From Flectonema sp. DT1601 (lineage: Eukaryota), in contig OZ025805.1 of assembly GCA_964019425.1 (NCBI GenBank), positions 434,001 to 498,000 on the forward strand: a stretch of 64,000 nt of DNA, written 5' to 3'. Positions 17,326 to 51,644 of this stretch are shown one piece after another (positions within the stretch are counted from its first letter, which is position 1; every line of letters begins with the position of its first letter). Both the position numbers and the translations under genes were made by a program. The notes beneath the pieces were generated by a model, which worked only from the letters and a program-made list of their open reading frames with translations, was not told where the DNA came from and did not search any database.

Positions 17326-17351
17326 CTGAGAATCAGAAAAATATCCTGAAA

Positions 17352-18200: not shown

Positions 18201-18362
18201 TGCACATGTAATGTACTTCTCTGAGGGGCCTGTACAACAGTTTCATTATTTTTTTGATTATTTTTACAAAGATCAGTTTTTCATTCTCAAACTTTCCTTT
18301 AATTTTTATTTTTATTTTTGATGTGTGTAAAGCAATTCTTGTTTTAATCTGTAACGGACTAC

Positions 18363-22203: not shown

Positions 22204-22326
22204 AAAGCCTACCCAGGTGGCCCAACATTTATAGAAGAACTTCCCAATAGGTTTTAAAGTCCTTTAGTAGAGAACAAGACCCTGGAGAGCGGGGACCCTA
22301 TCTAGGTTTCACATTTCAAACTCTTT

Positions 22327-24418: not shown

Positions 24419-25795
24419 TGGGGAGTGGGATGTGGATCCGGAGGAAGTTGAACATTTGTTTGCTGGTGATACCCTTTGCGAAACTGATCGGCTGGCAGAT
24501 CATGGAGTGGTTGCAAACAGCGAGTTTGAAATGGCGAAGAAGCAGTTTAGGATATTCGGTAAATGCTGGTTTGTTGATGATGCAAAACGGGAGAATCTGC
24601 TTCTTTGGATGAGAGACCACATTACGGAGTATTTATGTCTGGACACTGCCACATTCACAGAAGATGGTTGCCTCACTGTTGAAGGTGACATACTTCCTTC
24701 AGATGCCGAACAGATTGTTTTCCGCAATTCAAATTCCAACAGCACAGCCATGTCATCAGTTACCACTATCGGAGATGAGTTCTTGTTCCGTTGTTCACAA
24801 ATCACTTCTCTTGACCTATCATGTCTAAGTAGTGTCACTACTATTGGAGAAAGATTCTTATATTTCTGTTCAGAAATCACTTCTGTAAACCTTCCAGATC
24901 TCAGTAGTGTCACCACTATTGGAGATAAATTCTTATTTTATTGTTCAAGGATCACTTCTGCTGACCTTTCGGGTCTAAGTAGTGTTACTGTTATTGGACA
25001 TTTGTTCTTGTGTTCCTGTTCACAAATTAGCGCGCCTCCTCGTGGTGTTACCTGGAGAGTGCTGACGTATTGTTGTTGTTGCTGTGTATTCTTTTACCCC
25101 CGTTTTATTTTCCGGTAGCCTAACCTTTAAAAAAAAAAAAGGACAACATAGCAGAAGGTCAGGTGATCCGATCGCCTGAAATGTATTAACAGTATCAGCC
25201 CCGCGAGTTACTCGGGGAGCTCCCATGCAATGTGTGGAGAAAGAGGCCATCCCTCCCCCTACCTCTCTGCTTTACTACGTCGTTTTTTGTGTGTGGCATT
25301 TCTTTTCTTATATTCTTTTCTTTTCAATCTTGTTCCTTCACACGCAGTTGTTCGAGCGGTTGTGAACCACCTTGGGTCTCTTACGGTCTCCAAGCTACTG
25401 TTGTGCGAAGAAACAAATCTGTTGGTGCGGTGGCCTTCCGACGCCACCTGGACCGCAACTCGTTCACAGTGCCCTACCCGGTTCTCCACCGGACCGCCTG
25501 AGCGACGGGATCCATGGGATTCAAACCCCTAAACACTGGTTAATTTTTTTTTCATTGTTCAAGGATCACTTCTGTTGACCTTTCGAGTTTAAGTAGTGTT
25601 ACTGTTATTGGAGATGAGTTTTTGTTTTCCTGTAAAGAAATCACTTCTCTTGACCTTTCAGATCTAAGTAGTGTCACCACTATTGGTGATCGCTTTATCA
25701 GTAAATGCGACTCTCTTGAATCTGTCCAGCTTCCTGAAAGTAATAGCGCTCTCTTTGAGAAGTCTGTGAAAGCAGCGATTGATCATTCAGGATAA
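24419..25795 (+). pseudogene. Ubl-LRR pseudogene, 5'-truncated and interrupted by a short retroelement
   Basis: Starts mid-domain at EWDVDPEE, has LRR units on both sides of the 25028-25551 insertion, and ends AAIDHSG*. Confidence 0.85.
25028..25551 (+). mobile_element. Non-autonomous LRR-targeting retroelement, internally deleted copy
   Basis: Homologous to 34166-34859. Lacks the first 17 nt, the ribozyme P4 segment and a central block. Ends ...aaacactggttaa-T(n). Flanks do not match each other. Confidence 0.9.
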
Positions 25796-26185
25796 AGTGG
25801 TGAATTGATTCTTAAAGTTTTGTTTTTTTTGTAATTTTTGTTTTATTAATTACTTGACCTTCGTGTACATTCCGACTGAAATATGAAAACTTCTTATCAA
25901 AGATTACGGAATAAGAACAATCATCGATTTGAGAACTACTTTAAAAGGTATTCCGGTCACATAAAAGAAAGGAAGGAAAAGAAAGAAAAGGAAAAAAGAC
26001 CGCATGGCATTTGCTCCAGATCGAAGTTATTATTATTTTTAAAACAGCTACCCGGATGTACATTATTTTAGACAGAGGCTATCCGAAATTTTCAACTTTT
26101 TCATTATAGTTTTTTATAAACAATATTTTTTTTTAATCTAAACTTCCATCACAGGATACTTTTTCTCACCACAAGAACTCTTGCG

Positions 26186-26340
26186 ATGCAGGTTTCTGTA
26201 GTGTTTCCCGACTCAGGATTTGGAGATGCAGTTTTGACATCAACATCAGAGTCTGTCGTACGTGATGTTATAGAAACAGTTAACTGAGGAATGGGATGTT
26301 GACTCAGAATTTATTGAGATGATCGTATTGCGGTGATGTT
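26186..26340 (+). pseudogene. Divergent frameshifted Ubl-domain fragment
   Basis: Translates MQVSVVFPDSGFGDAVLTSTSESVVRDVIETV / EEWDVDSEFIEM, similar to the family N-terminus. Confidence 0.7.
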
Positions 26341-26757
26341 TTTTAGAAAGGAATGGTTTTACTGATTTGAATAAGATAAATAAACTGCTAACACCGAGTA
26401 ATGACATTTATTTTGAACAATAAAATTAGATTAGACTTGTGAGACATTTAGCCCTGATCAGTAGTATCGAATCAGAGTTTATATTTGGTTGGGAATATTT
26501 GAAAAAAATAAGCAGGGAAATTCTCCATTGATATCGGAAATGAGTACCTAGGCATGGGTCACATCCTTGTAGTGTTCACTTTTATTCATTCAGGTCACTG
26601 AAACAGATGAATCCTTTAGTAAAACAGTATTCATACCCCTTTGAGGGAATGTAATTACATGTCGCATCCTCGTAGTATTCGATACCCAGATGTCACTTGT
26701 ACAAGTTCTTTCTAACAGAACCCTTCCCACCTCACAGCAAATTATTTAAAAAAGACA

Positions 26758-28068
26758 ATGCAAGTTTTTGTGACGTGTCCTGATTGGGGACTCCCCGCAG
26801 TGACAGTGACGGCTGGTGCTGATTCGGTTGTGATCGACGTGTTGACGGAGGCTGCTGAGGAGTGGGATGTGGATCCGGAGGAAGTTGAACTCTCGTTTGC
26901 TGGTGATACCCTTTGCGAAACTGATCGGCTGGCAGATCATGGAGTGGTTGCAAACAGCGAGTTTGAAATGTGGACGAAGCAGTTTAGGATATTCGGTAAA
27001 TGCTGGTTTGTTGATGATGCAAAACGGGAGAAGCTGCTTCTTTGGATGAGAGACCACATTACGGAGTATTTATGTCTGGACACTGCCACATTCACAGAAG
27101 ATGGTTGCCTCACTGTTGACGGTAAGCTGCTTCCTTCAGATGCCGAACAGATTGCTTTCCGCAATTCAAATTCCAACAGCACAGCCATGTCATCAGTTAC
27201 CACTATCGGAGATGAGTTCTTGTCTTCCTGTTCGCAAATCACTTCTCTTGACATTTCAGGTCTTAGTAGTGTCACCACTATAGGAAAATTATTCTTGTCT
27301 TCCTGTTCACAAATCACTTCTGTAAACCTTTCAGGTCTTAGTAGTGTCACGGCTATTGGATATAAGTTCTTGTCTTCCTGTTCACAAATATCTTCTCTTG
27401 ACTTATCAGGTCTTAGTAGTGTCACCATAGTAGGAGTCGGATTCCTGTTTTCCTGTTCACGAGTCGTTTCTATTGATCTTTCTGGTCTTAGTAGTGTCAC
27501 CATAGTAGGAGGCGGATTCCTGTTTTCCTGTTCACGAGTCGTTTCTCTTGATCTTTCTGGTCTTAGTAGTGTCACTACTATTGGTGATCTTTTCTTGTCT
27601 CACTGTTCACAAATCACTTTTCTCGACCTTTCAGGTCTCAATAGTGTCACCTCTATTGGTGATGATTTCTTGTGTTCTTGTGAACGGATAGCAACAGTTG
27701 ACCTTTCAGGTCTTTGCTGTGTTACTTCTATTGGAGATAGGTTCCTTTCTTTTTGTACACAAATCACTTCTGTGAACCTTTCGGGTCTTGATAGTGTCAC
27801 CGCTATAGCAAATTACTTCTTGCGTTGTTGTTTATGTATTATTTCTCTTGATCTTTCAAGTCTTATTAGTGTCACCACAATAGGAAGTAATTTCTTGCGT
27901 AGTTGTTCAGGAATCACTTCTCTTGACCTTTCAAGTCTTGGTAGTGTCACCACTATTGGTGATTGCTTTCTCAGTAAATGCTACTCTCTCACATCTGTCC
28001 AGCTTCCTGAAAGTAATAGCGCTCTCTTTGAGAAGTCTGTGAAAGCAGCGATTGATCATTCAGGATAA
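26758..28068 (+). CDS. Ubiquitin-like domain + BspA/TpLRR-type leucine-rich-repeat protein (11 repeats)
   Basis: N-terminal MQVFV...LSFAGDTL...LADHGV resembles a ubiquitin fold. 25-aa repeats CSQITSLDLSGLSSVTTIGxxFL. No signal peptide or TM segment. Confidence 0.9.
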   Translation: MQVFVTCPDWGLPAVTVTAGADSVVIDVLTEAAEEWDVDPEEVELSFAGDTLCETDRLADHGVVANSEFEMWTKQFRIFGKCWFVDDAKREKLLLWMRDHITEYLCLDTATFTEDGCLTVDGKLLPSDAEQIAFRNSNSNSTAMSSVTTIGDEFLSSCSQITSLDISGLSSVTTIGKLFLSSCSQITSVNLSGLSSVTAIGYKFLSSCSQISSLDLSGLSSVTIVGVGFLFSCSRVVSIDLSGLSSVTIVGGGFLFSCSRVVSLDLSGLSSVTTIGDLFLSHCSQITFLDLSGLNSVTSIGDDFLCSCERIATVDLSGLCCVTSIGDRFLSFCTQITSVNLSGLDSVTAIANYFLRCCLCIISLDLSSLISVTTIGSNFLRSCSGITSLDLSSLGSVTTIGDCFLSKCYSLTSVQLPESNSALFEKSVKAAIDHSG

Positions 28069-29277
28069 AGTAGAGAATTGATTCTTAAGGTTTTTCTTTT
28101 TTTGTTATTTTTGTTTTATTAATTACTTGACCTTCGTGTACATTCTGACTGAAATATGAAAACTTCTTATCAAAGATTACGGAATAAGAACAATCATCGA
28201 TTTGAGAACTACTTTAAAAGGTATTACGGTCACATAAAAGAAGGGAAATAAAAGTAAGAAAAGAAAATAATAATTAAGAATATTTAAAAAAGTAAATAAG
28301 TCTGAAGGAAGAGAAGCTCAAGGAGCAGATTGGACAAGAACAACTCCAACAACAACAACAACAACTGTGTGTTCGTCATCGGAACAGTCGCATTCCCTGA
28401 TCTCACCCCCACTTCCCAGAACTGTACAGATACTTCTTTGTTGTGGATTTCTGACTTGTTTAATCTGAACTCTTAATTATAAACCATATTTCTTTATCAG
28501 GTGCATCCAGTAATGAAAAGTGACTTACCCGACGACGGAAGAGAAATGTATTGTGGATTTTAGTTTTATTAGAAGCACTGCTTTTAGTGTAGAGATTTTG
28601 ATGCTCCCAATTAACTTTTTTATGAGAAGTGTTACAGCAACCTGAAAATAAAATATGAAATTAGATTAGAAGAGGGAAGCTGTGAAACACATTTGTGAAC
28701 TACTTTTGATTGGCAGCCAATCAATAATTATATCCAAACATTATTTACAGAAATGTAATAACATGTCGCATCCTCGTAGTATTCGATGATTCAATGTAGG
28801 GATCGTATTTATATTTATTGTTGCTGCCTGGCGTTTTGAAAATATGAAATACACCAATAGAGGTACTCATATTATAAAAACAGAACCGGCATGGAACTTT
28901 GAAATTGAAAAGTTAGATACGAACGTACTAATGCTATCCCCGGTTAGAGATGCACGAGCGTTATCTCCGGAAAAATAATTTTGAAACTAAGTATGATTCC
29001 AACTGTGCCAAACATGACAAAGTGTCATATCCCACTATAAGAATCACCTGCTGAAATTACATACCAAACCATGACAATCTCACCACTGGATTTCAGTACC
29101 CCGAGTATCGTTATGCATTTATGGATATACCTACCTCTCGAAACCTAAATAGTTATTTAGAAGGCTAATTTAAGGATCACCTTAGTTCGCTGTATTCCTT
29201 AACAGATTGTTAAATTATCGTTCATTCCCCCTACAGGATATTATCCGTACAGTAATAAATATTTATATCATCGTGAA

Positions 29278-31572: not shown

Positions 31573-34165
31573 GTCAAAAATATACCTCACCGATTTTTTT
31601 ATAATATGAAACGTGCCTGTCGGTTCAAAACCCTCCCTCTCATCGTCAAAATGGAGTAGTTGTCGTTAACAGTTGTGATACATTATTATGTTGGTTTATT
31701 GAAAAATAAAACAATTATCCCTCCCTTCAATGAAATTCGTAACTGTTTTTTTTTTTTAAATCAATAAATCCCTCTTCATGAAGTTCCCCTTATTTCATCA
31801 CCTGTTGTGAATAATAACTGTAACGGAAAGGCATATGTTTGCCGTGGTTGCAATTTATGGTTTTCGATACCTCTTTTTCTTTTTTTAATTTTCAAAAAAA
31901 ACAATAGCATGGATACTGCCGTACAAGGTTATTCATTTTCGTTGTTGTCGTGTATGTAAAGTAGAACCGATAAAGCAGAAAAGTTTTTAAAAATATTTTT
32001 TTTTAATATTTTCCCTGCAATGATAAACATTTCAGGTGTAAACATCTCACATCGCCATAACTTACATTCCGACATTTGTATTTTTAACGTCATCAAACTA
32101 CTGTGTAATTGTTGTGTTTATTCCTCTCTTATTCTTTTTTTTAAACTAAAAAAAACAAACGTAACCCTTATAACTAAATGTAAGCTCGTGGGCAGTGCCT
32201 GTGAGATCTTAATCCCTTCAAACCCCCCGTGTCTATACTGATGATGAGAGAATAGAGGTTAAAGAGGTATATATGGATTACTCTCGAAACCTAAATAGTT
32301 ACTTTAAAAGACTAAGATAAGCCTCTATTGTAGTATAAGTGTGACACGAGGTTAACTGAGCGACTCTTGCTGACTGTGAAGCTAGACTAGATGGCTGCTC
32401 AGGTGTACGGGACTCTCACCCAAGAGACTGTGTTGTTGAGTGTCTCTTGTAGTGTATAAATTAAGGTTATAAAGCAGAAAGTTAAAGATAACTTTGGCAT
32501 TTGTTTTTAACATAATCTGCTTATCGCTCTCTCCTGTTCTGTTTTTTTTTTTTTTTTTTTTTTTTAAATGTAGTATCTGACAGCGGGAATCCCCATATTC
32601 GCCAGTTTTTCAAAGTTGCTCTCCATTTAATATTAGTATCAAGTCCCCCCCGCTCTGGGGCTTTCACTTAAGCAACCAGATTTCACGAGAGTACCATAAA
32701 AAGGTGTTGGATAAACCATAATTTTAAATTTCCTTTTTTTTTAGCTCTCTCGGTTTATGTTGATTGACTGTTTCGTACATCAAATATTCCCATCTATTCA
32801 CAAGTATTTGTTTATATTAATTTATAACATTCTCTTAATATCTCTTTTGATTCTGTTCCTTACAAATTGGAATTGCTACTCGTGTTGCCTGTTTTCTTCT
32901 TGTCGAGGCTTTCAGTAAGCCCCCCCTTGTAATATAAATTCTTTTGGGACAATAGGAGAATTCATGTCGCACGCATGTGATTATTTCATGAAGGTTTTAA
33001 TATGTAATGGAACAGTATTTTTTCTTTTTTGTTATTCCTTTCTCATTACCCATTCTTTTTTTTTGCTCGCAATCTGTTATTCTTCTGGACAAGGTGAACA
33101 GTTGGCAATCGATCCTTGCATCCGAAAGCTATAAAAACCATCACCGCGATTATGTCCTCTAAAATAGAATTAACTTTTGCTTCTTCGTCTCATCTCCGCA
33201 GGTGGTTTGTGAAAGCCTCTGCTAGGAAATCCTAATACTAACTCTTACTGATAAAACATCGAATTTCAGTTAAAAACAATCATTGTTTGTTTACTTATTC
33301 GTGACAACTCATAAGCCATCATTTATTCCCCCCACAGAGGATAATATCCATACAGTGAAGGCAGTGATTAGCTGAACCATATCTATTGTTCTCTTTATGA
33401 GTTCCTGATCTCACCCACCCTTCCCCACTTCCCAGAACTGTACAGATACTTCTTTGTTGTGGATTTCTGACTTGTTTAATCTGAACTCTTAATTATAAAC
33501 CATATTTCTTTATCAGGTGTGCCCAGTAATGGAAAGTGAATTTCTAATTTAGAAAGTTTCGAATGACAGAAATCATACGAACGTTATCAAGGTGCTAATC
33601 GCTGATTGTTTTTCATAGAAAAGGTAAAGATTATTTATATCCCTTTCTCAGTCCCTGCACACTAACTCAAGAAAAACAATGCAAGTTTTTGTGACTTGTC
33701 CTGATTGGGGACTCCCCGCAGTGACAGTGACGGCTGGTGCTGATTCGGTTGTGAACGACGTGTTGACAGAGGCTGCTGAGGAATGGGATGTGGATCCGGA
33801 GGAAGTTGAACTCTCGTTTGCTGGTGATACCCTTTGCGAAACTGATCGACTGGCAGATCATGGAGTGGTTGCAGACAGCGAGTTTGAAATGTGGACGAAG
33901 CAGTTTAGGATATTCGGTAAATGCTGGTTTGTTGATGATGCAAAACGGGAGAAGCTGCTTCTTTGGATGAGAGACCACATTACGGAGTACTTATGTCTGG
34001 ACACTGCCACATTCACAGAAGATGGTTGCCTCACTGTTGACGGTAACCTGCTTCCTTCAGATGCCGAACAGATTGCTTTCCGCAATTCAAATTCCAACAG
34101 CACAGCCATGTCATCAGTTACCACTATCGGAGATGAGTTCTTGTCTTCCTGTTCGCAAATCACTT

Positions 34166-34238
34166 GGGTAACGAAACTCGGATAGCGCGCCTCCTCGTGG
34201 TGTTGCCTGGATGCACCTTGTGTGTAACTAGAGTGCTG
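34166..34238 (+). ncRNA. HDV-like self-cleaving ribozyme (predicted)
   Basis: P1 GGGTAAC/GTTGCCT, P2 TAGCGC/GTGCTG, P3 GCC/GGT, L3 TCCTCGT, P1.1 CC/GG, P4 TGCAC/GTGTA, J4/2 with C. Confidence 0.82.
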
Positions 34239-34859
34239 ACGTATTGTTGTTGTTGCTGTGTATTCTTTTACCCCCGTTTTATTTTCCGGTAGCCTAACCT
34301 TTAAAAAAAAAGGACAACATAGCAGAAGGTCAGGTGATCCGGCCCGGGATACTCAGGCACCCAGAGCTCACAGGGGCCACCGGGTTTTTATTTTTTCCTT
34401 AGTGGCATGATTTCCCTTTACCCCCATTTCCTTCAAACTTCCCCCGTTTAGTCTTTTCACGCATGGGGGGATTATAAGTTCAGGTCGCCTGAAATGTATT
34501 AACAGTATCAGCCCCGCGAGTTACTCGGGGAGCTCCCATGCAATGTGTGGAGAAAGAGGCCATCCCTCCCCCTACCTCTCTGCTTTACTACGTCGTTTTT
34601 TGTGTGTGGCATTTCTTTTCTTATATTCTTTTCTTTTCAATCTTGTTCCTTCACACGCAGTTGTTCGAGCAGTTGTGAACCACCTTGGGTCTCTTACGGT
34701 CTCCAAGCTACTGTTGTGCGAAGAAACAAATCTGTTGGTGCGGTGGCCTTCCGACGCCACCTGGACCGCAACTCGTTCACAGTGCCCTACCCGGTTCTCC
34801 ACCGGACCGCCTGAGCGACGGGATCCATGGGATTCAAACCCCTAAACACTGGTTAATTT
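34166..34859 (+). mobile_element. Non-autonomous LRR-targeting retroelement (SINE/SIDE-like), full length
   Basis: Perfect 20-bp TSD ttcctgttcgcaaatcactt (34146-34165 and 34860-34879). Starts GGGTAAC and ends ggttaa-T(n). Confidence 0.92.
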
Positions 34860-36837
34860 TTCCTGTTCGCAAATCACTTCTCTTGACCTTTCAGGTCTTA
34901 GTAGTGTCACCACTATAGGAAAGTTATTCTTGTCTTCCTGTTCACAAATCACTTCTGTAAACCTTTCAGGTCTTAGTAGTGTCACGGCTATTGGATATAA
35001 GTTCTTGTCTTGCTGTTCACAAATATCTTCTCTTGACTTATCAGGTCTTAGTAGTGTCACCATAGTAGGAGGCGGATTCCTGTTTTCCTGTTCACGAGTC
35101 GTTTCTATTGATCTTTCTGGTCTTAGTAGTGTCACTACTATTGGTGATCTTTTCTTGTCTCACTGTTCACAAATCACTTTTCTCGACCTTTCAGGTCTCA
35201 ATAGTGTCACCTCTATTGGTGATGATTTCTTGTGTTCTTGTGAACGGATAGCAACAGTTGACCTTTCAGGTCTTTGCTGTGTTACTTCTATTGGAGATAG
35301 GTTCCTTTCTTTTTGTACACAAATCACTTCTGTGAACCTTTCGGGTCTTGATAGTGTCACCGCTATAGCAAATGACTTCTTGCGTGATTGTTTATGTATT
35401 ATTTCTCTTGATCTTTCAAGTCTTATTAGTGTCACCACAATAGGAAGTAATTTCTTGCGTAGTTGTTCAGGAATCACTTCTCTTGACCTTTCAAGTCTTG
35501 GTAGTGTCACCACTATTGGTGATTGCTTTCTCAGTAAATGCTACTCTCTCACATCTGTGCAGCTGCCTGAAAGTAATAGCGCTCTCTTTGAGAAGTCTGT
35601 GAAAGCAGCGATTGATCATTCAGGATAAAGTGGTGAATTGATTCTTAAGGTTTTTCTTTTTTTGTTATTTTTGTTTTATTAATTACTTGACCTTCGTGTA
35701 CATTCCGACTGAAATATGAAAACTTCTTATCAAAGATTACGGAATAAGAACAATCATCGATTTGAGAACTACTTTAAAAGGTATTCCGGTCACATAAAAG
35801 AAGGGAAATAAAAGTAAGAAAAGAAAATAATAATTAAGAATATTTAAAAAAGTAAATAAGTCTGAAGGAAGAGAAGCTCAAGGAGCAGATTGGACAAGAA
35901 CAACTCCAACAACAACAACAACAACTGTGTGTTCGTCATCGGAACAGTCGCATTCCCTGATCTCACCCCCACTTCCCAGAACTGTACAGATACTTCTTTG
36001 TTGTGGATTTCTGACTTGTTTAATCTGAACTCTTAATTATAAACCATATTTCTTTATCAGGTGCATCCAGTAATGAAAAGTGACTTACCCGACGACGGAA
36101 GAGAAATGTATTGTGGATTTTAGTTTTATTAGAAGCACTGCTTTTAGTGTAGAGATTTTGATGCTCCCAATTAACTTTTTTATGAGAAGTGTTACAGCAA
36201 CCTGAAAATAAAATATGAAATTAGATTAGAAGAGGGAAGCTGTGAAACACATTTGTGAACTACTTTTGATTGGCAGCCAATCAATAATTATATCCAAACA
36301 TTATTTACAGAAATGTAATAACATGTCGCATCCTCGTAGTATTCGATGATTCAATGTAGGGATCGTATTTATATTTATTGTTGCTGCCTGGCGTTTTGAA
36401 AATATGAAATACACCAATAGAGGTACTCATATTATAAAAACAGAACCGGCATGGAACTTTGAAATTGAAAAGTTAGATACGAACGTACTAATGCTATCCC
36501 CGGTTAGAGATGCACGAGCGTTATCTCCGGAAAAATAATTTTGAAACTAAGTATGATTCCAACTGTGCCAAACATGACAAAGTGTCATATCCCACTATAA
36601 GAATCACCTGCTGAAATTACATACCAAACCATGACAATCTCACCACTGGATTTCAGTACCCCGAGTATCGTTATGCATTTATGGATATACCTACCTCTCG
36701 AAACCTAAATAGTTATTTAGAAGGCTAATTTAAGGATCACCTTAGTTCGCTGTATTCCTTAACAGATTGTTAAATTATCGTTCATTCCCCCTACAGGATA
36801 TTATCCGTACAGTAATAAATATTTATATCATCGTGAA

Positions 36838-41295: not shown

Positions 41296-42255
41296 ATGCA
41301 AGTTTTTGTGACTTGTCCTGATTGGGGACTCCCCGCAGTGACAGTGACGGCTGGTGCTGATTCGGTTGTGAGCTACGTGTTGACGGCGGCTGCTGAGGAG
41401 TGGGATATGGATCCGGAGGAAGTTGAACTTTTGTTTGCTGGTGATACCCTTTGCGAAACTGATCGGCTGGCAGATCATGGAGTGGTTGCAAACAGCGAGT
41501 TGGAAATGGCGAAGAAGCAGTTTAGGATATTCGGTAAATGCTGGTTTGTTGATGATGCAAAACGGGAGAAGCTGCTTCTTTGGATGAGAGACCACATTAC
41601 GGAGTATTTATGTCTGGACACTCCCACATTCACAGAAGATGGTTGCCTCACAATTCGTGGTGACTTCCTTCTCTCAGATGCCAAACAAGTTGCTTTCCGC
41701 AATTCAAATTCCAAGAGCACAGCCATGCCATCAGTTACCACTATCGGGGATAGGTTCTTGTATTGTTCAAACATCACTTCTCTTGACCTTTCAAGTCTTA
41801 GTAGTGTCACAGCAATTGGAAATGAGTGCTTGTCTTGCTGTTCACGAATCACTTCTCTTGACCTTTCAGGTTTCAGTAGTGTCACCACTATTGGAAGCGA
41901 ATTCTTGTGTTACAGTACACGAATCACTGAGCTTGACCTTTCATGTCTTAGTAATACCACCGCAATTGGAAATTATTTCTTGTTTTCCTGTTCACACATC
42001 ACTTCTCTTGACCTTTCAGGTCTTAGTGGTGTCACCAGAATAGGGAGTCATTTCTTGTCTAACTGTCCCCAAATCACTTCTCTTGACCTTTCAAGTCTTC
42101 GTAATGTTACGAGTATTGAGGAGTCTTTCTTAGGTCAATGCAAAGCTCTTGAATCTGTCCAGTTGCCTGAAAGTAATAGCGCTCTCTTTGAGAAGTCTGT
42201 GAAAGAAGCGATTGATTATTCAGCAGCGATTGGAAGAATAACTCTTCTTTTGTGA
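41296..42255 (+). CDS. Ubl-LRR protein (6 repeats)
   Basis: Intact ORF with the same N-terminus and LRR consensus. Confidence 0.9.
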   Translation: MQVFVTCPDWGLPAVTVTAGADSVVSYVLTAAAEEWDMDPEEVELLFAGDTLCETDRLADHGVVANSELEMAKKQFRIFGKCWFVDDAKREKLLLWMRDHITEYLCLDTPTFTEDGCLTIRGDFLLSDAKQVAFRNSNSKSTAMPSVTTIGDRFLYCSNITSLDLSSLSSVTAIGNECLSCCSRITSLDLSGFSSVTTIGSEFLCYSTRITELDLSCLSNTTAIGNYFLFSCSHITSLDLSGLSGVTRIGSHFLSNCPQITSLDLSSLRNVTSIEESFLGQCKALESVQLPESNSALFEKSVKEAIDYSAAIGRITLLL

Positions 42256-42294
42256 AATTAGTCAGATTTTGACTAAAAAACGTAAACGGGTATT

Positions 42295-43329
42295 GTGTTG
42301 TTTTGTGAGGTCAATAGGACTGTAACTTTGTACAAAAAGAAACAACAGCATAGAATAAAAAAAAAGTAATGATAAGAACCAACTCTATCAAATCACATCA
42401 CCCCCGCTTACTTATGTTGTTTCCCGCGGTATTGTTGCTTGAATGTATAAATTTGTTTGGACTGATATTTATCGCCGTCAAATTTTCTTTTTTTATTTCA
42501 ACACTTGTTTAACAATATCAATTCCTCTCTTTATTAGTCCCTTCTTCCTTTCTAATTATTTATTACAAAAATCCTACCTTCTCAGAACAGTACGGATACA
42601 TTGTTTTGGTCAGGTGTGGTTATGATGATAAACTGATTGTCATTTTTCATTTTCTTGCTGAATGATATGGTTGTGTGCTGCCCCCAATTTTTTTATCGTA
42701 TTTGTAAAAAACCTGAGTAATGTGTTGTGCGCGTGGTTTGAGTGTTGTTTTGTGAGGACAATAAGACTGTAACTTTGTACAAAAAGAAACAACAGCATAG
42801 AATAAAAAAAAAGTAATGATAAGAACCAACTCTATCAAATCACATCACCCCCGCTTACTTATGTTGTTTCCCGCGGTATTGTTGCTTGAATGTATAAATT
42901 TGTTTGGACTGATATTTATCGCCGTCAAATTTTCTTTTTTTATTTCAACGCTTGTTTAACAATATCAATTCCTCTCTTTATTAGTCCCTTCTTCCTTTCT
43001 AATTATTTATTACAAAAATCCTACCTTCTCAGAACAGTACGGATACATTGTTTTGGTCAGGTGTGGTTATGATGATAAACTGATTGTCATTTTTCATTTT
43101 CTTGCTGAATGATATGGTTGTGTGCTGCCCCCAAATTTTTTTGTCGTATTTGTAAAAAACCTGAGTAATGTGTTGTGCGCGTGGTTTAAGTGTTGTTTTG
43201 TGAGGACAATAAGACTGTAACTTTGTACAAAAAGAAACAACAGCATAGAATAAAAAAAAGTAATCATAAGAACCAACTCTATCAAATCACATCACCCCCG
43301 CTTACTTATGTTGTTTCCCGTGGTATTGG
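42295..43329. repeat. 447-bp tandem repeat, ~2.3 copies
   Basis: Sequence and small ORFs recur at offset 447 (42443 vs 42890). Confidence 0.92.
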
Positions 43330-43559
43330 TATTTCTGACTTGTTTAATCTGAACTCTTAATTATCCACCATATATCCTTTATCAGATAACGACGGGAAAA
43401 AGAGAAAATGTATAGTAGTTTATTATTCGATGATTCAATGTAGGGATCGTATTTATATTTATTGCCTGGCGTTTGGAACACAACATCCACACATTCTTTA
43501 CACAGCAGCCATATATTAACACCCCACAGCTAATTGAAATTCAAAAAACTAAAAAAGCA

Positions 43560-44867
43560 ATGCAAGTTTTTGTGACGTGTCCTGATTGGGGACTCCCCGC
43601 AGTGACAGTGACGGCTGCTGCTGATTCAGTTGTGAACGACGTGCTGACGGCGGCGGCTGGGGAGTGGGATGTGGATCCGGAGGAAGTTGAACTCTCGTTT
43701 GCTGGTGATACCCTTTGCGAAACTGATCGACTGGCAGATCATGGAGTGGTTGCAGACAGCGAGTTTGAAATGTGGACGAAGCAGTTTAGGATATTCGGTA
43801 AATGCTGGTTTGTTGATGATGCAAAACGGGAGAAGCTGCTTCTTTGGATGAGAGACCACATTACGGAGTATTTATGTCTGGACACTGCCACATTCACAGA
43901 AGATGGTTGCCTCACTGTTGACCGTAAGCTGCTTCCTTCAGATGCCAAACAGGTTGCTTTCCGCAATTCAAATTCCAACAGCACAGCCATGTCATCAGTT
44001 ACCACTATCGGAGATGGGTTCTTGTCTTCCTGTTACCACATCACTGCGCTTGACCTTTCCAGTCTTCATAGTGTCACAACTATTGGATACGAATTCTTGT
44101 ATTTCTCACGACTCACTTCTCTTGACCTTTCAGGTCTTAGTAGTGTCACAAGTATTGGTGATGATTTCGTGTCTTTCTGTTCACAAATCACTTCTCTGGA
44201 CCTTTCAGGTCTTAGTAGTGTCACTACTATTGGTGATGAATTCTTGTGTCACTGTTTACAAATCACTTCTCTTGACCTTTCAGGTCTTAGTAGTGTCACC
44301 ACTATTGGAGAGAGTTTCTTGAATTACTGTTCAGGAATCACTTCTGTGAACTTCTCAGGTCTTAGTAATGTCACCACTTTTGGCAACTGGTTCATGTATT
44401 CCTGTTCAGGAATCACTACCCTTGACCTTGCAGGTCTTAGTAGTGTCACCAGTATTGGATTTTTCTTCTTGAAATCCTGTTTGCGTATCACTTCTCTTAA
44501 CCTTTCAGGTCTTAGCAGCATCACCACTATTGGGAGTTGTTTCTTGTCTTCCTGTTCGCGACTCACTTCTGTGAACTTCTCAGCTCTTAGTAATGTCACC
44601 ACTATTGGCTGCGGTTTCATGTCTTCCTGTTCAGGAATCACTACTCTTGACCTTTCAGGTCTTAGTAGTGTCACCACTATTGGCAACTGGTTCATGCCTT
44701 CCTGTTCAGGAATCACTACTCTTGACCTTTCAGATCTAAGTAGTGTCACCAGTATTGGTGATGACTTTCTCGATGAATGTGACTCTCTTGAATCTGTCCA
44801 GCTTCCTGAAAGTAATAACGCTCTCTTTGAGAAGTCTGTGAAAGCAGCGATTGATCATTCAGGATAA
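43560..44867 (+). CDS. Ubl-LRR protein (11 repeats)
   Basis: Family start MQVFVTCPDWG at 43560. Intact to AAIDHSG*. Confidence 0.9.
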   Translation: MQVFVTCPDWGLPAVTVTAAADSVVNDVLTAAAGEWDVDPEEVELSFAGDTLCETDRLADHGVVADSEFEMWTKQFRIFGKCWFVDDAKREKLLLWMRDHITEYLCLDTATFTEDGCLTVDRKLLPSDAKQVAFRNSNSNSTAMSSVTTIGDGFLSSCYHITALDLSSLHSVTTIGYEFLYFSRLTSLDLSGLSSVTSIGDDFVSFCSQITSLDLSGLSSVTTIGDEFLCHCLQITSLDLSGLSSVTTIGESFLNYCSGITSVNFSGLSNVTTFGNWFMYSCSGITTLDLAGLSSVTSIGFFFLKSCLRITSLNLSGLSSITTIGSCFLSSCSRLTSVNFSALSNVTTIGCGFMSSCSGITTLDLSGLSSVTTIGNWFMPSCSGITTLDLSDLSSVTSIGDDFLDECDSLESVQLPESNNALFEKSVKAAIDHSG

Positions 44868-45073
44868 AGTGGTGAATTGATTCTTATTGTTTTGTTTTTT
44901 GTTTAACTCATTACCATCGTGTACCTTCTGACTAAAATATGAAAACTTCTTTTCCCTTTGAGGGAATGTAATTACATGTCGCATCCTCGTAGTATTCGAT
45001 ACCCAGATATCACTTGTATAAGTTCTTTCTAACAGCAAGTTTAGCGTTTCGAAGAAATAATTCAAAAGAAGCA

Positions 45074-45114
45074 ACGCAAGTTTTAGTGACGTGTCCTGAT
45101 TGGGGACTCCCCGC
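45074..45114 (+). pseudogene. Tiny Ubl-LRR 5' remnant with ATG>ACG
   Basis: acgcaagttttagtgacgtgtcctgattggggactccccgc, preceded by the family's upstream sequence. Confidence 0.75.
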
Positions 45115-46208
45115 GGCACTCGCTATGATGATGATGATATCACTTCATGTGGCTCAGATAGCTCATAATTCATCATAAGTTGTGACTTCATATAAAGAAA
45201 GTGTTGTACAAGTGTTTTCATTAAGTATCAAAGTAGCACACGTAAACCTCCTTTAACTTTATCAGTTTCGGTTCACAGTTAGTGACACAAACAAAACATC
45301 ACAGTAGTTGTTATATTATTATTTTCTGTATAGTTCAAGATAAAGCCAATTCTGTTTTTGTAAATATAAACCCATTGTTGTTTGGTAGAGCGTAACTAAC
45401 CTATTCCTTTATTTATTAAAGATTTTTTGCTGGTTGCGCCAAAACAAAAAGAAAGTGAAGTGCAATTTGCCGATTCCTTTTTACCCAGGTAGTACTTTTA
45501 CAAAGAATGTAGAACCGAATTGGTTAAACATTTCATTACAGGAATCTAACAACATGTCGCATTCTTCGTAGTATTCGATACCCAGACATGATTCAATGTA
45601 GGGATCGTATTTATATAATTGTTGCAGCCTGGCGTTTGGAACACAACATCCACACATTCTTTACACAGCAGCCATATATTAACACCCCACAGCAAATAGT
45701 AATTCAAAAAACTAACAAACAATGCAAGTTTTTGTGACGTGTCCTGATTGGGGACTCCCCGCAGTGACAGTGACGGCTGGTGCTGATTCGGTTGTGATCG
45801 ACGTGTTGACGGAGGCTGCTGAGGAGTGGGATGTGGATCCGGAGGAAGTTGAACTCTCGTTTGCTGGTGATACCCTTTGCGAAACTGATCGGCTGGCAGA
45901 TCATGGAGTGGTTGCAGACAGCGAGTTTGAAATGGCGAAGAAGCAGTTTAGGATATTCGGTAAAAGCTGGTTTGTTGATGATGCAAAACGGGAAAAGCTG
46001 CTTCTTTGGATGAGAGACCACATTACGGAGTATTTATGTCTGGACACTCGGACATTCACAGAAGATGGTTGCCTCACTGTTGACAGTAGGCTGCTTCCTT
46101 CAAATGCCAAACAGATTGCTTTCCGCAATTCAAATTCCAACAGCACAGACATGTCATCAGTTACCACTATCGGAAATAAGTTCTTATATGGCTGTTCCCA
46201 AATCACTT

Positions 46209-46281
46209 GGGTAACGAAACTCGGATAGCGCGCCTCCTCGTGGTGTTACCTGGATGCACCTTGTGTGTAACTAGAGTGCTG
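46209..46281 (+). ncRNA. HDV-like self-cleaving ribozyme (predicted)
   Basis: P1 46209-15/46245-51 with G1.U wobble, P2 46226-31/46276-81, P3 46232-34/46242-44, L3 TCCTCGT, P1.1 GG 46252-53, P4 46255-59/46265-69, putative catalytic C 46271. Confidence 0.85.
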
Positions 46282-46904
46282 ACGTATTGTTGTTGTTGCT
46301 GTGTATTCTTTTACCCCCGTTTTATATTCCGGTAGCCTAACCTTTAAAAAAAAAGGACAACATAGCAGAAGGTCAGGTGATCCGGCCCGGGATACTCAGG
46401 CACCCAGAGCTCACAGGGGCCACCGGGTTTTTATTTTTTCCTTAGTGGCATGATTTCCCTTTACCCCCATTTCCTTCAAACTTCCCCCGTTTAGTCTTTT
46501 CACGCATGGGGGGATTATAAGTTCAGGTCGCCTGAAATGTATTAACAGTATCAGCCCCGCGAGTTACTCGGGGAGCTCCCATGCAATGTGTGGAGAAAGA
46601 GGCCATCCCTCCCCCTACCTCTCTGCTTTACTACGTCGTTTTTTGTGTGTGGCATTTCTTTTCCTATATTCTTTTCTTTTCAATCTTGTTCCTTCACACG
46701 CGGTTGTTCGAGCGGTTGTGAACCACCTTGGGTCTCTTACGGTCTCCAAGCTACTGTTGTGCGAAGAAACAAATCTGTTGGTGCGGTGGCCTTCCGACGC
46801 CACCTGGACCGCAACTCGTTCACAGTGCCCTACCCGGTTCTCCACCGGACCGCCTGAGCGACGGGATCCATGGGATTCAAACCCCTAAACACTGGTTAAT
46901 TTTT
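46209..46904 (+). mobile_element. Non-autonomous LRR-targeting retroelement, full length
   Basis: Perfect 20-bp TSD tggctgttcccaaatcactt (46189-46208 and 46905-46924). Confidence 0.92.
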
Positions 46905-47074
46905 TGGCTGTTCCCAAATCACTTCTCTTGACCTTTCAAGTCTTAGTAGTGTCACCACTATTGGCGATTGTTTGTTGTCTTTCTGTTCACAAGTCACTGC
47001 TCTTGATCTTTCAGGTCTTAGTAGTGTCACTACTATAGGAAATGATTACTTGTATTCCTATTCAGGAGTCACTT

Positions 47075-47769
47075 GGGTAAGGAAACTCGGATAGCGCGCC
47101 TCCTCGCGGTGTTACCTGGAGAGTGCTGACGTATTGTTGTTGCTGTGTATTCTTTTACCCCCGTTTTATTTTCCAGTCGCCTAACCTTTAAAAAAAAAAA
47201 AAAGGACTACATAGCAGAAGGTCAGGTGATCCGGCCCGGGATACTCAGGCACCCAGAGCTCACAGGGGCCACCGGGTTTTTATTTTTTCCTTAGTGGCAT
47301 GATTTCCCTTTACCCCCATTTCCTTCAAACTTCCCCCGTTTAGTCTTTTCACGCATGGGGGGATTATAAGTTCAGGTCGCCTGAAATGTATTAACAGTAT
47401 CAGCCCCGCGAGTTACTCGGGGAGCTCCCATGCAATGTGTGGAGAAAGAGGCCATCCCTCCCCCTACCTCTCTGCTTTACTACGTCGTTTTTTGTGTGTG
47501 GCATTTCTTTTCTTATATTCTTTTCTTTTCAATCTTGTTCCTTCACACGCGGTTGTTCGAGCAGTTGTGAACCACCTTGGGTCTCTTACGGTCTCCAAGC
47601 TACTGTTGTGCGAAGAAACAAATCTGTTGGTGCGGTGGCCTTCCGACGCCACCTGGACCGCAACTCGTTCACAGTGCCCTACCCGGTTCTCCATCGGACC
47701 GCCTGAGCGACGGGATCCATGGGATTCAAACCCCTAAACACTAGTTAATTTTTTTTTTTTTTTTTTTTT
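47075..47769 (+). mobile_element. Non-autonomous LRR-targeting retroelement, ribozyme-defective copy
   Basis: Starts after GTCACTT^. P4 and the catalytic C are deleted. T tail exceeds 20 nt. Left and right 20-mers differ at 6 positions. Confidence 0.9.
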
Positions 47770-48035
47770 TTCCTGTGAACAAATCACTTCTCTTGACCTT
47801 TCAGGTCTTACTAGTGTCACCGCTATTGGTGATTGCTTTCTCAGTAAATGCGACTCTCTTGAATATATCCAGCTTCCTGTGCAGCTGCCTGAAAGTAATA
47901 GCGCTCTCTTTGAGGAGTCTATGAAAGCAGCGATTGATCATTTAGGATAAAGTGGTGAATTGATTCTTAAAGTTTTGTTTTTTGTTATTTTTGTTTTATT
48001 AATTACTTGACCTTCGTGTACATTCCGACTGAAAT

Positions 48036-48410
48036 ATGAAAACACTGGTTAATTTTTCTAGTGTCAACGCTATTAGAAATGCTTTTTTGTGGGACTGTTC
48101 ACAAATTACTTCTCTTGACCTTTCAGGTCTTTCTAATGTCACCGATATTGGAGGTAAATTCTTATATCATTGTTCAAGGATCACTTCTGTTGACTTTTCG
48201 AGTTTAAGTAGTGTTACTGTTATTGGAGATGAGTTTTTGTTTTCCTGTAAACAAATCACTTCTCTCGACCTTTCAAATCTTAGTAGTGTCACCACTATTG
48301 GTGATCGCTTTATCAGTAAATGCGACTCTCTTGAATCTGTCCAGCTTCCTGAAAGTAATAGCGCTCTCTTTGAGGAGTCTGTTAAAGCAGCGATTGATCA
48401 TTCAGGATAA
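48036..48410 (+). pseudogene. Chimeric LRR C-terminal fragment ORF (124 aa)
   Basis: ATG from a family 3' flank, fused through the element's 3' tail (aaacactggttaattttt) in frame to LRRs and the AAIDHSG* cap. Confidence 0.7.
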
Positions 48411-48435
48411 ACCCCTAAACACTGGTTAATTTTTT
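48409..48435 (+). mobile_element. 3'-terminal remnant of the short retroelement
   Basis: aaacccctaaacactggttaatttttt followed by an in-register 20-mer tgattgttcagaaatcactt. Confidence 0.85.
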
Positions 48436-51400
48436 TGATTGTTCAGAAATCACTTCTCTTGACCTTTCAGGTGTCATTAGTGTAACTACTGTTGGAAGTG
48501 GCTTCTTGTCTTTCTGTTCCCAAATCACTTGGGCAATACGGCTACCGGAAGGGGAGATCTACGCTCGACCTCAGCTGGAAGATAGCACTAGACGTGGAAC
48601 ACGCAACTCTCTACGGAGAAGAGGTTGCAGGAGTGACCACGGACTTCAGGAAGTGTTTCGACCTGATCCCGCACGACATCCTCCTGAAATTAGTGAAGGA
48701 ATTGGGCCTCGGTGATAAGATCCTGAGAACTGTGACGGATGTCTACCGGCGACTCAGAAGGAGATTCAAGTTCCCGAGCGGCGTCGGAGAAGAATTTGCC
48801 ACCACCAACGGAATACTGCAAGGATGCCCGCTCAGCGTGGTGCTCTTCAATGCGCTGAGCTCGATACTCAGCAAAGCAATCGAGAGGGAAGCCGATGTGA
48901 CGCCCGGATCATATGCGGACGACCTGACGTTGTTTGGATCACGAACGAAGCTACAAGAAGGCGTAGAAGTCGTTGCGGAGTTCTGCACCCTGACCGGACA
49001 AGAACTCGCACCTCAGAAGTGCAAGTGGTTCTCGAACAGAGACCAGGGCCAGACCAACATCACAATGGGACTGGACTTCGATGACAGTGTCGATATCGTG
49101 GGATGCCACCTCAGTATGAAAGGAACCACCAAGCAGATGGGGAGGATCACGGAAGAAGTGCTCGATAGAGCGAGGCGAATCCGGTTACTTCCGCTCAGAT
49201 ACCAAGCGAAGGAACAGATAGCTGCAGCTAGTGTCATGCCCAAGGCGCTCTTCGGAACGGCACTGTACGATCCCGATGCGACGCGACTCGGACTGCTGAG
49301 AAGAGCAATGGCAACGGGGATTTTCCGCAAACTTGGAGGGAAAAGAACTAAGATGTCGCACACCATGGGCCTAACGCTACTCTGCAAGGGACATTGTGTG
49401 GATCCCGCGACGTACATTAGGTACAACAGACTCCTTGCACTCACCAGAATGCTACCGAAGCTAACTGAGAAGATACGCAGGGTATGGGAACACCTGCAAG
49501 AGCACACTGAAGCGACGAGAGGACCAGTCGGCCTCGCCCTGAGTACTCTGAAGGAACTTGGATGGGAATGGTCAACTTTCTCGGTCTTCGAAGGTCCGGG
49601 AGGGACGACCGAACACGGAAGGCTGGATGCGGGGCGCTGGCGGCACGATGTCAGAGAGGCGTGCAGGCGTTTCACCTGGAACAAAACAATTGCGGAAACG
49701 AGACGGGTAAACCTGAGAGGTATTGAAGCGGGCATCGACCGGAAAGAGACCCTGAAGGTCCTGAAGGAAGGAAAGGGCGACCCCTACCTGCGCGGAGTAG
49801 TGAAGCACTGCCTCCTGGACAACGTGTACACTGGCTCGATGAAGGCGGGAAACAAGAACTGCGCGCACTGCGAGGAGGTTGACGACGTAGAGAGGACGGA
49901 GACCCTCGAGCACGTGAACTGGGATTGCAGAGCTTATGACACAATCCGACAGGAATATCCGCAAGTGATGCTACAAGTTCGATGCGATTGGCCCAATTGC
50001 CTGAGGCTACTCGGCATCAAGCCCGACAATGTGGAACTGCCGGCGGGGCTCACCGGAGACCTACAACGAATGTTCGCACGGATCAGGCTCCGCAGGGACG
50101 ACTACCAACAACTGGAGGAGAGACGGCTGACGGTTGTGGAATACGCTGGGAACAAGGAACCGGAAGTAGTTATGCGATACAACAACAAACTGGAAAAGTA
50201 CATGCCAGTATACACCCAATGGCCCGAAGCCCTTGGATTGACCTTGTACTTGGCGCTTGCGAGCTACCTGAGGGAATTGAAGTGGCCTCGACAGCCAGAC
50301 GGGGTCGGAGTCACCTTCCTGGAATTAGCGATCGACTTCGAAGCGTATGCGGGGGTTGACATACCGACCACAGTCCACGAAGGCCACGTAGCGAAGTGCA
50401 CCAAAGACAGAGCCGCCGGGAAGAAAGCTGACGTCATGTGTGGACTGATGCTAAGATTGAACTTGGTTCACAAGCATTTAGAAGGCGAGGAACAAAGAAC
50501 CTTTCCCGACTACTGCGTAGGAAGCAACAAAGCCTTACGTCCACTAGGAGCCCCGGTACTGAAAGGTTTGAAGAAACGACCAGCTTTTCTGATGGGAGAC
50601 GAAACAGTAGACACAATTCGGAGGACGGTCCAGGAGGCGAACGACGGAAAAGCTGACAAAATCAGATTCGGCTTCGAGACTGAGTGCAGGCACTCGAACG
50701 AGAGGGAAGGGAGAGCGGAGAAATGGATAACCGCGGCACGACTTTTCCCATCAAAGGAAAAAGACGTACAGCTGAGGAGGGAGCTCTGCGAGCGAGGACC
50801 GACACGCCCGCCACCCGAGGTCGTCAAGAGACCGGGCATCGCGGAGGGACGAGGAACGATGAACTCGACGTGCTACGGACACTTCAAGAAGAAATGCAAT
50901 AGTTGTCGACGGGCCGGAAACACCATCTACCAGTGCTGCCACAACCATCACACTCTGGGGGATGAAGATGGACAAATACCGATATGGGACTTTTGCAGCA
51001 AACACAAGCTTACTCCATGTGCAGTCTGCATAGTGATCGGCAGAGGATCTGAGCAATGTTGCAGAAACAGCCACCACCGATGCCGTCACCACGAGATGGC
51101 TCCCTGCAACGACTGCAAGCGGAATCCGGATCCGGAACAACGGACTGCCACGAAATGCTGCAACAAAAAACATCACGGGCCAATTATAAGGACGTTGACG
51201 AGGAGGGCGAAGCAGCCGACGAAGCATGATATGCAAACCAGCACATCGCTTCTAAAATTAGGTTTCACCAAACAAATGAAACCGAAAGCAGAGGAAACCC
51301 CGGAAAGGGAACCACAGGACAAGGGGTTAACTTAGGTTGGCCGAACCAGTGCCTCGTCATCTCACCGTGCTAGCAAGCCTGAATGACAGCACTCAAAATG

Positions 51401-51644
51401 GTACATATATTTCTGTTCCCAAATCACTTCTCTTGACCTTTCAGGTTTAAGTAGTGTCACTATTATTGGTGATTATTTTTTACTTTCCTGTTCAGGAGTC
51501 ACTTCTCTGGACCTTTCAAGTTTAAGTAGTGTTACGAGAATAGGGAATAATTTCCTCAGTAAATGCGATTCTCTTGAATCTGTCCAGCTTCCTGAAAGTA
51601 ATGGCGCTGTTTTTGAGAAGCCTTTGAAGGCAGTGATTAGCTGA
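48436..51644 (+). pseudogene. LRR gene fragment interrupted by a non-LTR retrotransposon
   Basis: LRR-coding sequence at 48436-48530 and 51410-51644, ending ...KAVIS*. Confidence 0.8.
48531..51409 (+). mobile_element. 5'-truncated non-LTR retrotransposon (RT, CCHC finger, Cys/His repeats); ORF open to 51335
   Basis: RT motifs QYGYRKGRST, DFRKCFD, GILQGCPLS, YADD, then CAHC...ETLEHVNWDC. Perfect 20-bp TSD tttctgttcccaaatcactt (48511-48530 and 51410-51429). Visibly more GC-rich than the host DNA. Confidence 0.93.

What the first reader, a model, noticed from the sequence alone, without database searches (positions are those of the whole stretch)
24419..51644. Sequence-specific retroelement pair that targets the coding repeat of an LRR multigene family
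Seen: a non-LTR retrotransposon (48531) and a ~0.7-kb non-coding element (34166, 46209, 47075; damaged copy 25028; remnant 48409) sit at the same register of the 75-bp LRR unit, in the Q-I-T^S codons ((A/G)TCACTT^). All are in sense orientation. Three have perfect TSDs of exactly 20 bp. No copy occurs outside LRR sequence in this window. Known: site-specific non-LTR elements usually target rDNA, snRNA/tRNA genes, SL-RNA arrays (CRE/SLACS), telomeres or microsatellites. Inference: this is an autonomous/non-autonomous pair whose niche is a protein-coding tandem repeat, which I do not recognise as a described target. The two elements share little 3' sequence, so the true mobiliser may be a related family.
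Basis: partly seen in the sequence, partly recalled or inferred. Interest (0 to 1): 0.92.

Follow-up and report, generated by a model that had tools for sequence, protein, structure and literature searches.

The report
Retroelements aimed at LRR coding repeats
A jumping gene (LINE) and a short non-coding element in a marine-type protist, likely a diplonemid, have landed again and again at one exact base of the 75-letter coding repeat of a leucine-rich-repeat gene family, a likely site-specific habit whose nearest published parallel is the trypanosome ingi/RIME hot spot in RHS genes.

Summary
Confirmed and extended. In the window, three insertions (two 691-bp short elements, one 5'-truncated LINE) have exact 20-bp target duplications ending TCACTT; one has an empty twin gene in a 99%-identical duplication. 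Six of seven 3' junctions and four of five 5' junctions share one register of the LRR unit, all sense. Beyond the window, 18 of 68 LRR-family proteins from what appears to be the same assembly (13 contigs, 16 different flanks) end in the element's first codons at that register; a second truncated LINE does too. Full-length copies of the LINE (99% identical, 1542 aa) encode APE endonuclease plus RT, no RNase H; 9 of 10 LINE-bearing contigs carry LRR genes (sister family 1 of 6). The short element begins exactly with a predicted HDV-like ribozyme and ends in a T run. Not shown: absence from non-LRR sites genome-wide, that this LINE mobilises the short element (3' ends unrelated), and the clade. 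A protein-coding multigene target is not unprecedented (ingi/RIME in RHS, TcTREZO in MASP); a coding tandem repeat hit at one register was not found in my searches. New variant of a known kind.

The parts
48531..51409 (+). 5'-truncated APE-type LINE; ORF 48531-51335 (934 aa: RT from its second motif, CCHC knuckle, three C-x2-H-x4-C-x2-C...CC..HH repeats), 74-nt 3' UTR, no poly(A)
   Evidence: Pfam RVT_1; 99% identical to full-length P0011 with APE + RT; a 6,325-nt contig of run X1 matches from exactly 48531 and has 3,907 more letters upstream; motifs
48511..48530 (+). left copy of the LINE's 20-bp target duplication
51410..51429 (+). right copy of the LINE's 20-bp target duplication
34166..34856 (+). 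short non-coding element, full copy, followed by a T run; TSD 34146-34165 / 34860-34879; interrupts LRR gene 33679 in its first repeat
   Evidence: empty twin site 27225-27244 in gene 26758
34166..34238 (+). predicted HDV-like ribozyme (P1 7 bp opening with G-U, P3 3 bp, 7-nt L3, P1.1, P4, P2 6 bp); predicted cut site = first base of the element
   Evidence: descriptor scan; same at 46209-46281; activity untested; no Rfam match
46209..46899 (+). short element, full copy; TSD 46189-46208 / 46905-46924; interrupts LRR gene 45722 in its first repeat
47075..47748 (+). short element with 19-nt deletion in the predicted ribozyme and a 23-T tail; both junctions on register but flanks do not match (likely recombinant)
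25028..25543 (+). damaged short element (5' junction deleted, same 19-nt deletion, internal deletion of about 145 nt); 3' junction on register
   Evidence: the matching empty unit is at 48167-48186
48409..48429 (+). 3' remnant of the short element plus T run, on register
26758..28068 (+). intact host gene: ubiquitin-like N-terminus plus BspA-type LRRs (25 aa, 75 bp); empty-site twin of gene 33679
   Evidence: Pfam LRR_5 E 4.7e-25, weak Rad60-SLD; 17 differences in 1,238 aligned bases to gene 33679 without its element
33679..35628 (+). LRR gene interrupted at 34165; predicted product stops six codons into the element
45722..48410 (+). LRR gene(s) interrupted and rearranged by short elements
41296..44867 (+). 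two further intact LRR genes (41296-42255, 43560-44867), unoccupied targets
52008..52934 (+). intact LRR gene, unoccupied targets

Best explanation
A recently active LINE family encoding an APE endonuclease and reverse transcriptase, and a 691-bp non-coding element that it likely mobilises, have inserted repeatedly in sense orientation at one base of the 75-bp LRR coding unit, likely because the LINE protein recognises that sequence. Shown: common register, strand, 19-20-bp duplication, many distinct flanks, APE + RT in full-length copies. Inferred mechanism (target-primed reverse transcription, by analogy with R1/Tx1/L1): the endonuclease nicks the bottom strand 19-20 bp left of the final junction, leaving a primer that ends in A; the element RNA's 3' U run pairs with it (top-strand T tails of 3 to 23); the top strand is cut after TCACT(T/G). 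The short element's RNA would be released from the host gene's own sense transcript by the predicted HDV-like ribozyme at its first base, which explains its exact, untruncated 5' ends. Each insertion puts a stop codon six codons (or, in a variant, 18 codons) after the junction, so it likely inactivates or truncates that LRR gene; a family with dozens of genes and up to ten sites per gene tolerates this. Copies at the same register then likely recombine (47075, 25028), reshuffling repeats.
For: Three exact TSDs, differing from each other by 2-3 of 20 bases while left and right copies agree. Empty twin in a 99.0% duplication. Short-element copies differ at 3-10 of 513-691 bases but their right flanks at 3-8 of 20. 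18 of 68 LRR-family proteins end in ..[ILN]T^[WG]VTKLG, 16 of them outside the window, on 13 contigs, after 0 to 8 full repeats, with 16 distinct 7-residue flanks; none shows the head in the other readable phase or antisense. One more has the head at the same base in a shifted frame (P0146), one reads out of the element's 3' end on register and repeats the flank of P0145 on the same contig (P0150), one runs into a differently truncated LINE within about one base of the site (P0121). Run X1 holds a junction with a flank absent from the window, on register. 9 of 10 contig lengths carrying the LINE also carry LRR genes, against 1 of 6 for sister family P0012 (Fisher p = 0.008). HDV-like descriptor hits exactly base 1 of both intact copies; 2 cores in 20 shuffled 64-kb controls.
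Against: The 18 junctions were found by starting from LRR genes, so they cannot show absence from other sites; only two LINE junctions were read. Co-location is on contigs of 78 kb to 1 Mb, matched by length, for 15 of 22 listed members, and one LINE contig had no LRR hit. Occupied flanks are more alike than random LRR units (0.58 vs 0.46 +/- 0.04 over 7 residues, p = 0.002): site preference or some common descent. One 3' remnant is off register. LINE and short element share no significant sequence. The X1 contig extends about 2,090 letters upstream of the APE start with no listed LRR or element-head piece at 80%: long 5' region, non-LRR flank, or a cut table. The ribozyme descriptor was written after seeing the sequence, its J4/2 is one base longer than I recall as usual, and Rfam gives no hit.
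Confidence: 0.72

Rival explanations
1. Relative, not strict, specificity as for ingi/RIME and L1Tc/NARTc: the elements are spread over the genome at a loose consensus that the LRR unit happens to match once per repeat, so LRR genes are a hot spot rather than the niche.
For: This is what is reported for the trypanosome elements (PMC5814959, passages; PMC3185411, passage). Variable bases are tolerated inside the TSD. My junction sample is LRR-anchored. One LINE contig lacks an LRR hit; X1 contig shows no LRR piece upstream.
Against: No copy in the 93% of the window that is not LRR; 9 of 10 LINE contigs carry LRR genes versus 1 of 6 for the sister family.
Confidence: 0.2
2. Targeting is real but the short element is moved by another LINE (for example the sister family P0012 or an unseen one); the window's LINE merely shares the site.
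For: No shared 3' sequence; most SINE/LINE pairs share a 3' tail (PMC4494074, passage). P0147 carries a third, unidentified sequence starting at the same base and two proteins stop exactly there.
Against: Same strand, register and TSD length; P0012 contigs mostly lack LRR genes. Compatible with the site-specific part of the best explanation.
Confidence: 0.25
3. One or a few old insertions were spread through the LRR family by duplication and gene conversion.
For: The family duplicates and recombines (5.3-kb duplication, chimeric copies 47075 and 25028 sharing a 19-nt deletion); two pairs of identical flanks among 18; flanks more alike than background.
Against: Left and right TSD copies agree at locus-specific variable bases; empty twin gene; 16 distinct flanks of 18; two different elements and two different LINE truncation points at the same base.
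Confidence: 0.04

Closest known systems
ingi/RIME (Trypanosoma brucei) and L1Tc/NARTc (T. cruzi) in RHS genes
   Same: APE-type LINE plus short non-autonomous element inserting at a fixed site inside the coding region of a protein-coding multigene family, predicted to disrupt many members (PMC7563717, passages); HDV-like ribozyme at the first base of the elements, proposed to release them from polycistronic RNA (PMC3185411, passages); euglenozoan host; 2A-like motif in a close relative (P0002).
   Different: Target is a tandem coding repeat with up to ten sites per gene, not one site per gene; TSD 19-20 bp; T tail rather than poly(A); no RNase H and no CX2CX12HX3-5H fingers; short element shares no sequence with the readable part of the LINE; ingi/L1Tc are described as only relatively site-specific.
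TcTREZO in MASP pseudogenes (T. cruzi)
   Same: Non-autonomous repeated element reported as site-specific and mostly inserted in a protein-coding multigene family (one sentence and the reference title in PMC5814959; the original paper was not held).
   Different: No autonomous partner described in the passage seen; target is not described as a coding tandem repeat.
Tx1-clade and R1-clade sequence-specific APE LINEs (Tx1L, Keno, Kibi, Koshi, R1, TRAS/SART)
   Same: APE endonuclease, fixed site and orientation, multicopy target (PMC4640811 Introduction; PMC4494074 passages).
   Different: [quoted passage not shown] Clade membership of this LINE was not tested.
CRE/SLACS/CZAR and R2
   Same: Strict site specificity in euglenozoans (CRE group); 5' HDV-like ribozyme and co-transcription with the target gene (R2; abstract start of PMC3414825).
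   Different: They use a C-terminal restriction-like endonuclease and RNA-gene targets; this family has an N-terminal APE.

Membership tests
Non-LTR retrotransposon, APE type | APE domain N-terminal to a non-LTR RT | tested here: met
   P0011: PF03372 at 14-203, PF00078 at 570-778; best solved relative human L1 ORF2p, E 6e-17
Non-LTR retrotransposon, APE type | 5' truncation and target-site duplication | tested here: met
Ingi clade (ingi/L1Tc) | RNase H after RT | tested here: not met
   No RNase H family at E <= 1 in 4 of 4 full-length proteins
Ingi clade (ingi/L1Tc) | C-terminal CX2CX12HX3-5H fingers | tested here: not met
   0 matches in 4 of 4 proteins; a CCHC knuckle and three different Cys/His repeats instead
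Ingi clade (ingi/L1Tc) | 3' poly(A) tail | tested here: not met
   T runs of 3-23 after 7 of 7 3' ends
Ingi clade (ingi/L1Tc) | 5' HDV-like ribozyme shared by autonomous and short elements | tested here: inconclusive
   Predicted at base 1 of the short element; 5' end of the full-length LINE not readable
Ingi clade (ingi/L1Tc) | 2A-like peptide before APE | tested here: inconclusive
   DxExNPGP in relative P0002, partial in P0001, absent from the called ORF of P0011
Ingi, Vingi, Tx1, R1, RTE or L1 clade | RT phylogeny with labelled clade references | not testable with these tools
   No labelled clade sequence came from any search; the quick tree of 64 hits shows only a 4-member clade (P0011, P0012, P0001, P0002; SH-aLRT 100) among diplonemid and unnamed LINEs
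R2/CRE/SLACS group | restriction-like endonuclease instead of APE | tested here: not met
   APE present
Strictly sequence-specific element | fixed base and orientation within the target | tested here: met
   18 of 18 intact in-frame head junctions, 6 of 7 window 3' junctions
Strictly sequence-specific element | nearly all genomic copies lie in the target | tested here: inconclusive
SINE/LINE pair | shared 3' tail | tested here: not met
   local alignment of the last 80 nt, p = 0.33 against 2,000 shuffles
Pol III SINE | tRNA, 5S or 7SL head | tested here: not met
   Rfam scan of 33900-35000: five chance-level hits, none such
HDV-like ribozyme | nested double pseudoknot with cut site at the 5' G of P1 | tested here: inconclusive
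   All helices can be drawn and the site equals the element's first base; one P1 and one P2 variant keep pairing (the P2 change inferred from protein); post hoc descriptor, no Rfam hit
HDV-like ribozyme | Mg-dependent self-cleavage | not testable with these tools
   bench test needed

The most novel reading that the evidence does not exclude
A lineage of APE LINEs outside the Tx1 and R1 clades has evolved strict specificity for a host protein-coding tandem repeat; with its ribozyme-headed short partner it occupies about a third of the LRR gene family and, by planting identical islands at one register, acts as the family's truncation and repeat-shuffling engine.
Probability: 0.35. Interest if true: 0.87.

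Novelty: new variant of a known kind. Interest (0 to 1): 0.72.

Why it matters
Reviews list RNA genes, spliced-leader exons, other transposons, microsatellites and telomeres as the targets of sequence-specific non-LTR elements and place the APE-type ones in the Tx1 and R1 clades (PMC4640811). A strict target inside a host coding repeat would add a new class of safe haven and possibly a further independent origin of APE specificity. It gives a compact system for asking how an APE (or the unclassified C-terminal Cys/His module) reads a degenerate 75-bp site, how a short element without a shared 3' tail is mobilised, and whether targeted retroelements drive diversification of an LRR family (22 to 26 of 68 sampled products are cut at or near the site).

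Tried and rejected
No whole genome is held, so no direct census. The 24-nt head pattern found 0 matches in metagenome contigs; the LINE alignment found no relatives in viral or metagenome contigs. Sequencing runs: one holder at 0.36 of the words, two additions with next to none; no RNA holder listed. X1 does not cover the LINE's 3' end. Rfam: nothing for the short element. Short element as an internal-deletion product or C-terminal fragment of a LINE: no DNA match to the window LINE, no credible protein match to 64 LINE proteins. Element ORF look-ups: 2 of 3 not in the collection; the third is seen on 4 contigs, longest 515,557, an LRR-bearing length. C-terminal Cys/His module: 41 relatives among 1.84 billion representatives, model pLDDT 74.8, no fold match by Foldseek or VIA-align, Atlas leads under 0.9 only; its role in targeting is untested, and it also occurs in relatives not known to be site-specific. 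RT tree: quick method only, no labelled clades. Earlier findings of this scan: none for this genome or these sequences. The original RHS and TcTREZO papers were not held; they are cited through papers that describe them. I recall a report of a Tx1 family targeting histone genes; two searches found nothing, so it is unverified and would be a further coding-gene precedent if real. Minus-strand orientation of the short element was rejected: the ribozyme fold starts at the left end, and the T run sits at the right end as for the LINE.
Full report
Observation. The window holds a cluster of genes with a ubiquitin-like N-terminus and 25-residue BspA-type LRRs (Pfam LRR_5); a profile finds 53 intact 75-bp units, all on the + strand. 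A 691-bp non-coding element occurs at 34166, 46209 and 47075, damaged at 25028, and as 3' remnants at 48409 and 48040; a LINE runs 48531-51409. Exact 20-bp duplications flank 34166, 46209 and the LINE. Because each element ends in T and the duplication begins with T, the true length is 19 or 20. No 16-mer of the short element occurs elsewhere in the window. Three TSD-proven events on one strand and register have a chance of 2e-4 (uniform) to 2e-3 (T-primed sites only).

Independence. The three duplicated 20-mers differ from one another by 2-3 bases while left and right copies agree exactly. Gene 33679 lies in a 5.3-kb duplication at 99.0% identity whose twin gene 26758 carries the 20-mer once and no element (17 differences in 1,238 bases). 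Copies 47075 and 25028 share a 19-nt deletion and have mismatched flanks, so some copies are products of recombination.

Beyond the window. An insertion at this base turns the LRR reading into ..IT-WVTKLG-stop. Of 68 LRR-family proteins from ENA records on 36 contig lengths (the window's own proteins sit on a contig of 492,556, the same length as several of them), 18 end this way, two of them the window's own, on 13 contigs, after 0 to 8 full repeats, with 16 distinct 7-residue flanks. None shows the head in the other readable phase or antisense. Of the other 50: 31 end normally, 1 has the head at the same base in a shifted frame, 1 reads out of the element's 3' end on register, 1 enters a LINE truncated at a different point within about a base of the site, 2 stop at the site, 1 continues into an unidentified sequence at the site, 2 join a head-deleted element off site, and 11 end in ways I could not assign. 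Against full independence, occupied flanks are more alike than random units (0.58 vs 0.46 +/- 0.04, p = 0.002), though far from identical. Run X1 holds one junction with a flank absent from the window, on register, and matching P0132. This sample starts from LRR genes and cannot show absence elsewhere. The one unanchored test is co-location: 15 of 22 members of the LINE's protein cluster were listed, on 10 contig lengths, 9 of which also carry LRR genes, against 1 of 6 for the sister family P0012 (Fisher p = 0.008; 0.04 if only the four large control contigs count).

The LINE. The window copy is cut inside RT; P0011 (1,542 aa, 99% identical; four intact copies among the 15 listed) supplies the rest: APE, RT, a CCHC knuckle and three C-x2-H-x4-C-x2-C..CC..HH repeats, with no RNase H and no L1Tc-type C2H2 finger. 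The nearest named relatives are from the diplonemid Flectonema neradi (59% and 56%), then Diplonema papillatum (about 31-33%), so the host is likely a diplonemid; that rests on the element's relatives only. P0002 has a weak Josephin-like domain and a DxExNPGP motif before APE. A quick RT tree groups P0011, P0012, P0001 and P0002 (SH-aLRT 100) but holds no labelled clade. A 6,325-nt contig of X1 matches from exactly 48531 and extends about 2,090 letters upstream of the APE start without a listed LRR or head piece; whether that is a long 5' region or a non-LRR flank is open.

The short element. Rfam finds nothing. Its first 73 bases can be drawn as an HDV-like nested pseudoknot whose cut site is the element's first base; a descriptor hits only base 1 of the two intact copies and one A/T-rich minus-strand stretch in the window, and 2 cores in 20 shuffled windows. 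The descriptor is post hoc and partly recalled. Variants at one P1 and one P2 position keep pairing, while copy 47075 breaks P1 and loses P4 and the putative catalytic C. Its 3' end is unrelated to the LINE's (p = 0.33).

Mechanism. Most likely target-primed reverse transcription from an APE nick on the bottom strand 19-20 bp left of the junction, primed on a U-tailed RNA, with the top strand cut after TCACT(T/G); the short element is released from the sense host transcript by self-cleavage. Register, strand, TSD and domains are shown; endonuclease recognition, U-tail priming, ribozyme activity and the partnership are inferred.

Known systems. ingi/RIME insert at a fixed site in the coding region of trypanosome RHS genes, predicted to disrupt over half of the family (PMC7563717, passages); L1Tc/NARTc begin with an active HDV-like ribozyme (PMC3185411, passages) and show relative site specificity (PMC5814959, passages), which also notes TcTREZO in MASP pseudogenes. 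So it works like ingi/RIME in RHS, but fails the Ingi tests for RNase H, C2H2 fingers and poly(A) (features from PMC12278014, passages, and PMC5814959). Known strict APE elements are placed in Tx1 and R1 with non-coding or transposon targets (PMC4640811, Introduction; PMC4494074, passages). The D. papillatum genome paper lists LINEs without characterising them (PMC10161547, passages; supplements not read, and they may bear on this). Searches for an LRR-targeting or diplonemid site-specific element found none (most subscription papers and Repbase are not searched). PMC4035085, PMC3747384 and PMC5035012 (passages) added only background.

Verdict. Real, repeated and largely independent insertion at one base of a coding tandem repeat; new variant of a known kind; interest 0.72. 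Strict genome-wide specificity and the LINE-short element partnership remain to be shown.

Noticed in passing
window 14950-17911 (+): Long broken ORF with a GIY-YIG-like motif upstream of an RT-like part (stop at 16704): candidate Penelope-like element with the endonuclease in front; Pfam gave no hit, the label is by eye.
   Followed up: partly
window 20188-22203 (+): 671-aa ORF with a P-loop and a C-terminal zinc-finger-like end, resembling RHS/Crinkler-type NTPases from recall, between two 1.9-kb direct repeats 17710-19606 and 22323-24237 at 98.5%.
   Followed up: no
window 29203-31572 and 36763-39132 (+): Two identical S41/CPAF-like peptidase ORFs inside the 5.3-kb duplication that alternates with LRR genes.
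   Followed up: partly
P0147 (contig length 300,098), P0135, P0140: A third, unidentified sequence begins at the same LRR base in P0147, and two proteins stop exactly there; candidates for the unseen 5' end of the full-length LINE.
   Followed up: partly
window 50853-51203: Three-fold Cys/His module at the LINE C-terminus with no Pfam, fold or Atlas match; 41 relatives found.
   Followed up: yes
window 46655-46690: Polypyrimidine tracts inside the short element, of the kind that could direct trans-splicing or polyadenylation of the split LRR gene (function is a guess).
   Followed up: no
P0096, P0141, P0145, P0148, P0157: A second subfamily of the element head (5 of 18) lacks the early stop and reads 12 residues further; the change falls in the predicted P2 helix.
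   Followed up: partly
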